DNA of 17,981 nt from a virus (taxonomy: Duplodnaviria; Heunggongvirae; Uroviricota; Caudoviricetes). The notes beneath the pieces were generated by a model. The model was not told the DNA's origin. It saw nothing but the letters and a program-made list of their open reading frames with translations, and made no database searches. The position numbers were made by a program, and so were the translations under genes. This document shows positions 16,912 through 16,957 of this stretch, in pieces (the first letter of the stretch is position 1; each line of letters begins with the position of its first letter). Where the stretch lies: the IMG/VR virus record IMGVR_UViG_2850784384_000005, one strand, 5' to 3'.

Positions 16912-16957
16912 TTGTTCGTAGTTGTTCCGCTTTGTTGCTCATTGTTGCACGTTGTAT
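16912..16957. promoter_or_regulatory. Phased hexamer array, copy a: TTGTT(C/G) at 16912, 16922, 16932 and 16942, with a degenerate fifth at 16952
   Basis: Read directly. On the minus strand this is GGAACAACTACGAACAA, about 16/19 identical to copy b. Adjacent palindromes CGCATAtccagTATGCG and TATGCGCATA at 16962-16982. Confidence 0.5.

What the first reader, a model, noticed from the sequence alone, without database searches (positions are those of the whole stretch)
16912..16957. One 10-bp-phased hexamer array recurs at three sites in the island
The motif GAACAA (TTGTTC on the other strand) is repeated at exact 10-bp spacing three to five times at three places: between int and alpA (16912-16957), upstream of the capsid operon (9011-9036), and 117 bp past the phoQ stop (1578-1604). 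Copies b and c share an identical 15-mer, and a and b are about 16/19 identical over GGAACAAC(T/C)ACGAACAA. Helical-face phasing is typical of a cooperative DNA-binding protein. Copy b overlaps a plausible -35 for the capsid promoter. Copy a is in the opposite orientation to b and c. Candidate binders are AlpA or a helper-phage late activator, or this could be a packaging or recombination site. I cannot name the binder from sequence.
Basis: seen in the sequence. Interest (0 to 1): 0.7.

Follow-up and report, generated by a model that had tools for sequence, protein, structure and literature searches.

The report
Candidate AlpA binding arrays in PICI
A six-base motif repeated once per DNA turn marks both ends, the regulator gene and the capsid operon of a phage-parasitic island, and is most likely the unmapped docking site of the island's small master regulator and excision factor AlpA.

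Summary
GAACAA repeated at exactly 10 bp occurs at 16912-16957, 9011-9036 and 1579-1604, and nowhere else in the window above chance.

The window holds a decayed EcCIEDL933-type capsid-forming PICI inserted between phoQ and roxA. Site c lies in the island's attachment-site arm. A fourth array sits in the other arm, beyond int and outside the window.

In both arms the array is 17 nt from a doubled 12-bp repeat. That repeat has the same architecture as the annotated Int arm repeats of phage P4, so the arm-site role already has a candidate.

The arrays are conserved in every related island examined, whatever the insertion site or replication-protein type. They are absent from the helper phage HK106. 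Within site a the AACAA cores are far better conserved than the spacers.

The best explanation (about 0.6) is that these are operator arrays for AlpA, a 62-aa winged-helix excisionase-type protein. It would act as directionality factor at the att arms, autoregulator at site a and activator at the capsid promoter, like 186 Apl, P2 Cox or RdfS. No binding was tested.

This is a new member of a known kind, of moderate interest.

The parts
16912..16957 (-). Array a. Five 10-bp-phased units, GAACAA on the gene-sense (-) strand. It lies 46 bp downstream of the int stop and 283 bp upstream of the alpA start.
   Evidence: score 31.1 against a shuffle maximum of 21.4. Present in 72 of 73 loci with allele-1 AlpA and 0 of 12 with other alleles. 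AACAA cores are 94.6% conserved against 69.9% for the other unit positions. Also present in EcCICFT073, where AlpA autoactivation was shown experimentally (PMC6092414).
9011..9036 (+). Array b. Three perfect GAACAA units, read as TTGTTC in the direction of transcription. It sits directly after a terminator hairpin and 214 bp upstream of the capsid ATG at 8796.
   Evidence: (score 32.3). The block TTTTGTAAATTATTTGTTCGYGGTTGTTCCA..TTGTTC is conserved between this island and the divergent cf-PICI L009, while the flanks are not. Present only in islands with the HK97-type capsid operon.
1579..1604 (+). Array c. Units AAACAA, GAACAA and ACACAA in the int-distal (P') arm of the attachment site.
   Evidence: score 25.5. 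Conserved in L001 and L005-L009 at the equivalent island end.
1538..1561 (+). Doubled 12-bp repeat ATTAACTACACC x2, 17 nt from array c. It is the candidate Int arm-type site.
   Evidence: The same doubled repeat lies next to the array in the other arm. Phage P4 has annotated 'attP arm sequence repeats' with the same architecture: doubled, 12-bp period, co-oriented on both sides of the core. A similar doubled motif is described for HE-PICIs in PMC10111431, section 19.
1460..1469 (.). Attachment-site identity block AAATATGTCC (the crossover region), which starts within the phoQ stop codon (1459-1461).
   Evidence: The same 10 bp is found at the roxA-side junction of the Shigella flexneri and EDL933 islands.
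16441..16629 (-). alpA, encoding a 62-aa winged-helix protein, the proposed binder of the arrays.
   Evidence: Pfam Phage_AlpA, E = 5e-18. Sequence match to PDB 8c3t. AlphaFold model with pLDDT 87; the best fold match is the GIsul2 excisionase (TM 0.79), followed by MerR-type wHTH proteins, RdfS, Pukovnik Xis and TorI.
17004..17981 (-). 3' part of int, a P4-family tyrosine integrase. The gene runs off the window.
   Evidence: The full-length orthologue in L005 has Arm-DNA-bind_3 and Phage_integrase domains.
16662..16697 (-). Possible weak array e. Units ACACAA, ACACAT, ACGCAA and ACACGA at 10-bp spacing, between a putative alpA promoter (TTGCCA-17-CACAAT) and the alpA ribosome-binding site.
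   Evidence: Read; promoter candidate. The equivalent site scores 16.2-16.6 in L006 and L214, at the level of shuffled sequence, so it is not significant.
9060..9077 (-). Intrinsic-terminator-like hairpin AGCCGGAGCAATCCGGCT followed by a T run, immediately upstream of array b.
   Evidence: A hairpin of different sequence occupies the same place in L009.

Best explanation
The GAACAA arrays are cooperative binding sites for the island's own AlpA protein. AlpA is a 62-aa winged-helix protein of the excisionase (recombination directionality factor, RDF) class.

Monomers would bind head to tail, one per helical turn, and bend the DNA.

- **At the two attachment-site arms** (c in the window, d beyond int), the array sits 17 nt from a pair of integrase arm-type sites. 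There AlpA would shape the excisive complex.
- **At site a**, it would mediate the known positive autoregulation of alpA.
- **At site b**, in capsid-forming islands, it would switch on a capsid and packaging operon that has no recognisable sigma-70 promoter.

One protein and one motif would thus couple excision, self-amplification and late gene expression.

Shown here: the arrays, their significance, their placement, their conservation and the fold class of AlpA. Inferred: that AlpA is the binder, and what binding does at each site.
For: 1. **The arrays are real.** They are the only phased GAACAA clusters in the window.
2. **Arm arrays are universal in the lineage.** Both att arms of every related island examined carry them, at five different insertion sites: phoQ/roxA, tqsA, abgR/smrA, cspD/clpS and rcnR/thiM.
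3. **The geometry is fixed.** Each arm has three units, 17 nt, then a doubled 12-bp repeat.
4. **The Int arm-site role already has a candidate.** The doubled 12-bp repeat matches the annotated P4 Int arm repeats in period, doubling, co-orientation and position on both sides of the core. This island's Int has the P4-type Arm-DNA-bind_3 domain. The phased hexamers are therefore left for a second factor.
5. **Direct repeats one helical turn apart are the signature of RDF sites.** Several RDFs use the same motif at att and at promoters: 186 Apl (PMC7498355), RdfS (PMC11963761) and TorI with five cooperative sites (PMC3509656).
6. **AlpA has the right fold.** It is Pfam Phage_AlpA, and its model matches the GIsul2 excisionase, RdfS, Pukovnik Xis and TorI.
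[quoted passage not shown] That element carries arrays a, c and d.
8. **Selection acts on the motif.** In 52 distinct copies of site a, AACAA cores are 94.6% identical against 69.9% for the other unit positions. Site b is a conserved block within diverged flanks.
9. **Other binders are disfavoured.** The arrays do not change with replication-protein type: D5-type primase, DUF927 or RepA. The helper phage HK106 has none.
Against: - No binding experiment exists, and none was found in the searchable literature.
- Covariation could not separate AlpA from Int. Both are homologous in every island that has the motif (AlpA 55-98% identical, Int 54-100%). In HE-PICIs both proteins are more divergent and the arrays are gone.
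- Islands with the second AlpA allele keep the arm arrays and site b but lack site a. Either both alleles read GAACAA, or the binder is not AlpA.
- RDF sites normally lie on one arm only. Here they lie on both.
- AlpA did not change int promoter activity in EcCICFT073 (PMC6092414), although array d lies upstream of int.
- Site a is inverted relative to b and separated from alpA by a terminator-like hairpin. No single promoter geometry explains both sites.
Confidence: 0.6

Rival explanations
1. The GAACAA arrays are integrase arm-type sites, bound by the N-terminal Arm-DNA-bind_3 domain of the P4-family Int. Copies a and b would be extra Int sites used for autoregulation or left over from duplication.
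For: The arrays flank the core on both arms, as arm-type sites do. The motif is constant wherever Int is homologous, 54-100% identical. It persists in islands whose AlpA is only 55-60% identical. P4 Int is reported to repress its own promoter (PMC7286903, citing Piazzolla 2006).
Against: A separate doubled 12-bp repeat in each arm reproduces the annotated P4 Int arm-repeat architecture, giving four half-sites for a tetramer. Arrays a and b carry no such repeat and lie 1.3 kb and 7.5 kb from the nearer island end. A 10-bp head-to-tail series of up to six units is typical of RDFs rather than of arm sites.
Confidence: 0.12
2. The arrays are bound by a factor not encoded in the island. This could be the still unidentified helper-phage inducer of alpA, as P2 Cox binds 10-bp-phased cox boxes upstream of the P4 vis gene. 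It could also be a host regulator that reads tandem direct repeats, such as an OmpR/PhoB-type response regulator.
For: Helper phages induce alpA transcription and the inducer is unknown (PMC6092414). P4 has three 10-bp TTAAAG repeats about 150 bp upstream of vis; from my own knowledge these are the Cox boxes of PLL. The motif is invariant across islands, as expected for a common external factor.
Against: Helper HK106 has no phased GAACAA array; its best score of 15.5 is at the level of shuffled sequence. Searching the sequences of a and b against 50,697 phage records finds nothing. AlpA alone suffices for excision without a helper, so the arm arrays do not need a phage protein. I know of no E. 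coli regulator with this motif and spacing; that rests on recall, not a test.
Confidence: 0.13
3. Another conserved island protein binds the arrays, for example the DUF4222 protein, the Icd-like protein or, at site b, the PerC-family regulator of some islands.
For: DUF4222 and Icd-like genes occur in all the islands examined. A PerC-family gene lies just upstream of site b in L001, L005 and L009.
Against: None of these proteins has a recognised DNA-binding fold in the searches run. PerC is missing from this window and from classical PICIs L006, L007 and L008 that still have arm arrays. Only AlpA has the RDF fold and the genetic phenotype.
Confidence: 0.1
4. The arrays are replication-origin iterons or packaging sites.
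For: P4 alpha-protein iterons (GGTGAACAG) resemble the motif and are also about 10 bp apart.
Against: The arrays stay the same across islands with three different replication-protein types, whose own iterons differ. Those iterons lie directly downstream of pri-rep: GGTAGACAG at 10392-10489 in the window, GGTGAACAG in L008 and L009. The arrays also occur in classical PICIs without the HK97-type terminase and capsid module.
Confidence: 0.03

Closest known systems
Phage 186 Apl and P2 Cox operators (dual-purpose RDF and transcription regulator)
   Same: Direct repeats one helical turn apart. The same motif is used at the attachment site and at promoters. The binder is a small cooperative DNA-bending protein (PMC7498355).
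   Different: Apl and Cox repress early promoters and bind one att arm. Here the sites lie on both arms, and the published effect of AlpA on its own promoter is activation. AlpA is a MerR-like wHTH of Pfam family Phage_AlpA, not a Cox/Apl-type protein.
Satellite phage P4 attP, Vis and PLL region
   Same: A P4-family Int with doubled 12-bp arm repeats co-oriented on both sides of the core. An AlpA-family protein, Vis, is both excisionase and regulator (PMC2603039, PMC7286903). A 10-bp-phased triple repeat lies upstream of vis. A phased GGACAA/GGAAGA/GGACGA triplet lies 19 bp from the P-arm doubled repeat.
   Different: The motifs differ: ATGCCCCC arm repeats and TTAAAG boxes. The P4 boxes upstream of vis are read by the helper's Cox, not by Vis. 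The Vis footprints could not be read here, so the P4 triplet is a lead, not a test.
RdfS of ICEMlSymR7A, and TorI of KplE1
   Same: A wHTH RDF binds attP and its own promoter and coordinates excision with expression (RdfS, PMC11963761). KplE1 attL holds five cooperative RDF sites (TorI, PMC3509656). Both are fold neighbours of the AlpA model.
   Different: RdfS sites have no consensus motif. Here there is a sharp AACAA core with strict 10-bp spacing.
Doubled attP motif of helper-embedded PICIs (PMC10111431)
   Same: A doubled 12-bp motif, tgTGTATTGCantgTGTATTGCa, in two co-oriented copies flanking the attP core. Its binder is undecided between the Int arm domain and AlpA.
   Different: That corresponds to the 12-bp repeat next to the arrays, not to the GAACAA arrays. 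The HE-PICI arms examined have no GAACAA arrays. That paper states the doubled motif was not found in other PICIs, whereas a related one, GGTGTAGTtaat x2, is present here.

Membership tests
RDF (excisionase) binding-site array | Three or more head-to-tail direct repeats spaced about one helical turn apart | tested here: met
   Exact 10-bp spacing, 3-5 units per array in the window and up to 6 in EcCICFT073.
RDF (excisionase) binding-site array | Located in an attachment-site arm next to integrase arm-type sites | tested here: met
   Arrays c and d lie 17 nt from the doubled 12-bp repeat in each arm, 70-130 bp from the core. The presence on both arms is atypical.
RDF (excisionase) binding-site array | A cognate small winged-helix RDF is encoded in the element | tested here: met
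   AlpA: Pfam PF05930, PDB 8c3t at E = 2.6e-6, and fold matches to the GIsul2 excisionase, RdfS, Pukovnik Xis and TorI.
RDF (excisionase) binding-site array | Cooperative binding, DNA bending and stimulation of excision by the RDF | not testable with these tools
   Requires gel-shift, footprinting and excision assays. The literature gives only genetics: alpA is needed for excision and induction (PMC6092414, PMC11773190).
Dual-function RDF/transcription-factor operator (Apl, Cox, Vis, RdfS type) | The same motif occurs at att and at one or more promoters controlled by the RDF | tested here: inconclusive
   The motif is shared by the att arms, the alpA upstream region and the capsid-operon upstream region. 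AlpA activates PalpA in EcCICFT073, which has array a (PMC6092414). No promoter was mapped, and control of site b by AlpA is untested.
P4-family integrase arm-type sites | Repeats confined to the att arms, with four half-sites in the P4 pattern (doubled, 12-bp period, co-oriented) | tested here: not met
   The GAACAA arrays have a 10-bp period and also occur 1.3 kb and 7.5 kb from the nearer island end (a, b). A different repeat, ATTAACTACACC x2, fits the P4 pattern.
Replication-origin iterons (P4 alpha / PICI Pri-Rep) | Lie next to the rep gene and change with the Rep type | tested here: not met
   The arrays are unchanged across D5-type primase, DUF927 and RepA islands. Distinct iterons lie downstream of pri-rep.
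Pseudomonas aeruginosa AlpA antiterminator and its binding element | A Q-like protein whose C-terminal HTH reads a single GGGACG element between -35 and -10 | tested here: not met
   PMC9371919 maps DNA-contact residues at R128-H142, so that AlpA is well over 140 residues long. The island's protein is a 62-aa Phage_AlpA wHTH, and the motif and copy number differ. The shared name is a coincidence.

The most novel reading that the evidence does not exclude
One 62-aa protein, AlpA, reads a single phased AACAA code at four places. This would directly couple excision, its own amplification and capsid-operon firing in capsid-forming PICIs.

Two features would be unusual. RDF sites would lie on both att arms, in fixed register with the Int arm sites. 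Site b would head a promoter, a leader of about 190 nt and a terminator, a unit resembling lambda PR'-tR'. In that case AlpA, or a partner loaded at b, would act by antitermination rather than simple activation.

An alternative novel reading is that array a is the docking site of the long-sought helper-phage inducer of Gram-negative PICIs, analogous to the Cox boxes of P4.
Probability: 0.2. Interest if true: 0.65.

Novelty: new member of a known kind. Interest (0 to 1): 0.45.

Why it matters
AlpA is described as the master regulator of Gram-negative phage-inducible chromosomal islands, yet I found no mapped DNA target for it in the accessible literature.

These arrays give a concrete, mutable operator to test in the two model elements, EcCICFT073 and EcCIEDL933. 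They predict which functions AlpA controls directly: excision at both arms, autoregulation and the capsid operon.

They also resolve the ambiguity left in PMC10111431 over whether Int or AlpA binds the doubled attP motif. On this reading, the 12-bp repeat belongs to Int and the 10-bp array to AlpA.

The mechanism class, an RDF doubling as a transcription factor on helically phased repeats, is already well established.

Tried and rejected
- **Rfam scan** of the whole window at permissive threshold found no RNA family at any site.
- **Sigma-70 consensus scan** found no promoter at site b and only weak candidates near alpA. Promoter geometry stays unresolved.
- **Pseudomonas AlpA and its binding element** are an unrelated protein and motif.
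- **Covariation of AlpA against Int.** I used 5 annotated E. coli islands, 80 IMG/VR loci and the HE-PICIs. Both proteins diverge together, so the test did not discriminate.
- **An early inference withdrawn.** I first thought the 12-bp repeat tracks Int divergence. The repeat core, GTGT(A/G)GT, is nearly constant, so I rely on the P4 annotation instead.
- **Rep iterons, packaging site and PerC** were rejected as explanations (see rivals).
- **Other elements scanned for the same arrays.** CP4-57 (the original AlpA locus), P4 and HE-PICIs have none.
- **Helper phage.** The HK106 scan and searches of a and b against all phage records found nothing.
- **The P4 Vis papers** (Cali 2004, Piazzolla 2006) are not held in the library.

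Full report
**What the window is**

phoQ ends at 1461. From about 1470 to the end of the window, every gene lies on the minus strand and belongs to a phage-inducible chromosomal island (PICI).
- int: 17004 to beyond 17981
- alpA: 16441-16629 (Pfam Phage_AlpA, E = 5e-18)
- An IS4-family transposase and an IS1 insertion
- A D5-type primase: 10503-12251
- An HK97-type capsid, protease, portal, connector, HNH and terminase operon: about 8796 down to 2553

The closest annotated relatives are E. coli cf-PICIs. The prototype EcCIEDL933 sits at the same roxA/phoQ site. The capsid gene here has an in-frame stop and the SSB gene is truncated. This copy is therefore decayed, in a Shigella-like way; the closest alpA locus found is in Shigella flexneri.

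**The observation**

All three arrays are as described. GAACAA-N4-GAACAA with up to one mismatch gives 5 hits against 0.17 expected. A phased three-unit matrix scan scores b 32.3, a 31.1 and c 25.5. The maximum over 100 shuffles is 21.4, and nothing else in the window passes it. A repeat finder given no motif recovers a and b. The shared 15-mer in b and c, and the opposite orientation of a, are confirmed.

**What surrounds the arrays**

The island boundary is a 10-bp identity block, AAATATGTCC, at 1460-1469, also found at the roxA-side junction of related islands. Array c therefore lies in an attachment-site arm, about 110 bp from the core.

A repeat ATTAACTACACC x2 (1538-1561, 12-bp period) lies 17 nt from array c. 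Related islands show a fourth array, d, between the int start and the other junction. It too is 17 nt from a copy of the doubled 12-bp repeat and in the same orientation. Each arm thus carries a module of about 70 bp: three phased hexamers, 17 nt, then the doubled 12-mer. Several islands also have a further phased series next to the core in the int-proximal arm.

**Conservation across related islands**

The arm arrays are present in every island of this Int/AlpA lineage that I looked at, at five different chromosomal sites and in the IMG/VR loci whose contigs include an arm.
- **Site b** occurs only in islands with the HK97-type capsid operon. This includes a divergent one (L009) in which the array and 12 bp upstream are conserved while the flanks are not.
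- **Site a** occurs in 72 of 73 loci with allele-1 AlpA, always 300-330 bp upstream of alpA on the sense strand. It occurs in 0 of 12 loci with other AlpA alleles.
- **Within site a**, across 52 distinct sequences, AACAA columns are 94.6% identical. The remaining unit positions are 69.9% identical and the flanks 84%. This periodic conservation points to a protein reading the pentamer once per turn.

**Who binds**

*Integrase.* The P4 genome record annotates its 'attP arm sequence repeats' as doubled 12-bp units, co-oriented on both sides of the core. That is the architecture of the 12-bp repeat here, and this island's Int has the same Arm-DNA-bind_3 domain. A comparable doubled motif was reported for HE-PICI attP sites, with the binder left open (PMC10111431). 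I therefore assign the 12-bp repeat to Int, which leaves the 10-bp arrays for another factor.

*Replication protein.* The arrays are constant across three Rep types, whose own iterons lie elsewhere.

*Helper phage.* HK106, a proven helper of EcCIEDL933, has no such array. Searches of a and b against all phage records are empty.

*AlpA.* Several lines point to it.
- It is the only recognised DNA-binding protein common to all these islands.
- Its model (pLDDT 87) best matches the GIsul2 excisionase, then MerR-type winged helices, RdfS, Pukovnik Xis and TorI.
- RDF sites are characteristically direct repeats one helical turn apart, and several RDFs use them both at att and at promoters (PMC7498355, PMC11963761, PMC3509656).
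[quoted passage not shown] That element carries arrays a, c and d.

**Limits**

- Nothing here shows binding.
- I could not separate AlpA from Int by covariation, because both proteins diverge together. In HE-PICIs (Int 40% identical, AlpA 58%) the arrays are simply absent.
- Allele-2 islands keep the arm arrays and b but lack a. This needs both alleles to read the same core; the wing GGRSVGW and the R-Y pair of the recognition helix are conserved.
- RDF sites on both arms are unusual.
- AlpA did not affect the int promoter in EcCICFT073, although d lies upstream of int.
- Site a is inverted relative to b, and a conserved terminator-like hairpin (about 16795-16825) separates it from alpA.
- The best sigma-70-like candidates lie closer to alpA, so how a acts is not resolved.
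- At b, no sigma-70-like promoter is detected.
- The capsid leader ends in a hairpin plus T7 that overlaps the ribosome-binding site. Activation, antitermination or both remain possible.

**Comparison and novelty**

This works like the Apl, Cox, Vis and RdfS systems, in which one small RDF uses helically phased repeats for both recombination directionality and transcription control. I found no description of an AlpA operator for PICIs in the searchable literature. The arrays are therefore a plausible new member of a known kind, directly testable in two model elements. Interest is moderate.

Noticed in passing
window 1973-2012 (+): A second, unrelated 10-bp-phased array: TGTCAC x3 plus CGTCAC, about 370 bp inside array c. 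The triple TGTCAC-N4 pattern recurs in 10 other fetched loci. In the seven of them where array c was also located, it lies roughly 270-480 bp inside it. It could be a small-terminase or cos-related site, or another operator.
   Followed up: partly
window 7969-7971; 12597-13323; 14858-16204; 9463-9624: The island is decayed. It has an in-frame stop in the major capsid gene, an IS1 and an IS4-family insertion, and a truncated SSB gene. This pattern is typical of Shigella.
   Followed up: partly
window 8797-8833 (-): A hairpin GTCCTGG...CCAGGAC followed by T7 lies immediately before the capsid ATG and includes the likely ribosome-binding site. With site b about 190 nt upstream, this gives a promoter-leader-terminator layout reminiscent of lambda PR'-tR'. 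It is conserved in L001 and L005 but not L009.
   Followed up: partly
window 9060-9077 and 9423-9440 (-): Two identical terminator-like hairpins, AGCCGGAGCAATCCGGCT, bracket the 100-aa ORF at 9097-9399, which has no family match.
   Followed up: no
window 16970-16985: A perfect 16-bp palindrome, CAGTATGCGCATACTG, lies between the int stop and array a. It has one mismatch in EDL933 and is not conserved in L006 or L007.
   Followed up: partly
window about 16795-16825: A hairpin GGCAT...ATGCC with an A run on one side and a T run on the other could act as a bidirectional terminator between array a and alpA. The stem is retained in L005-L007 despite sequence change. It would stop int transcripts and antisense transcripts coming from the opposite-strand genes seen in L001.
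   Followed up: no
window 10260-10489: Clusters of short tandem repeats (CCTTATCTA, GGGTAGACAGT, GGTAGACAG) directly downstream of pri-rep are probably the origin iterons. Islands with another Rep type have GGTGAACAG inverted pairs resembling P4 type I iterons.
   Followed up: partly
L090 (phage P4) 3985-4010: GGACAA-cctc-GGAAGA-cgca-GGACGA, three 10-bp-phased units, lies 19 bp from the P-arm doubled Int repeat. This is the same geometry as array d and is a candidate Vis site. It was not checked against the published footprints.
   Followed up: no
L087 2240-2430: One IMG/VR cf-PICI encodes an additional excisionase-like HTH protein immediately upstream of alpA and has no Int match to this lineage, yet it keeps array b.
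   Followed up: no
L009 13760-13800, L080-L084, L008 14165-14190: A further phased series (GTGTTT, GGTTC, TTGTTC, TTGTTT) abuts the att core in the int-proximal arm of several islands. The block TTAGTGTTT next to the junction is conserved regardless of insertion site and may be a core-type Int site.
   Followed up: partly
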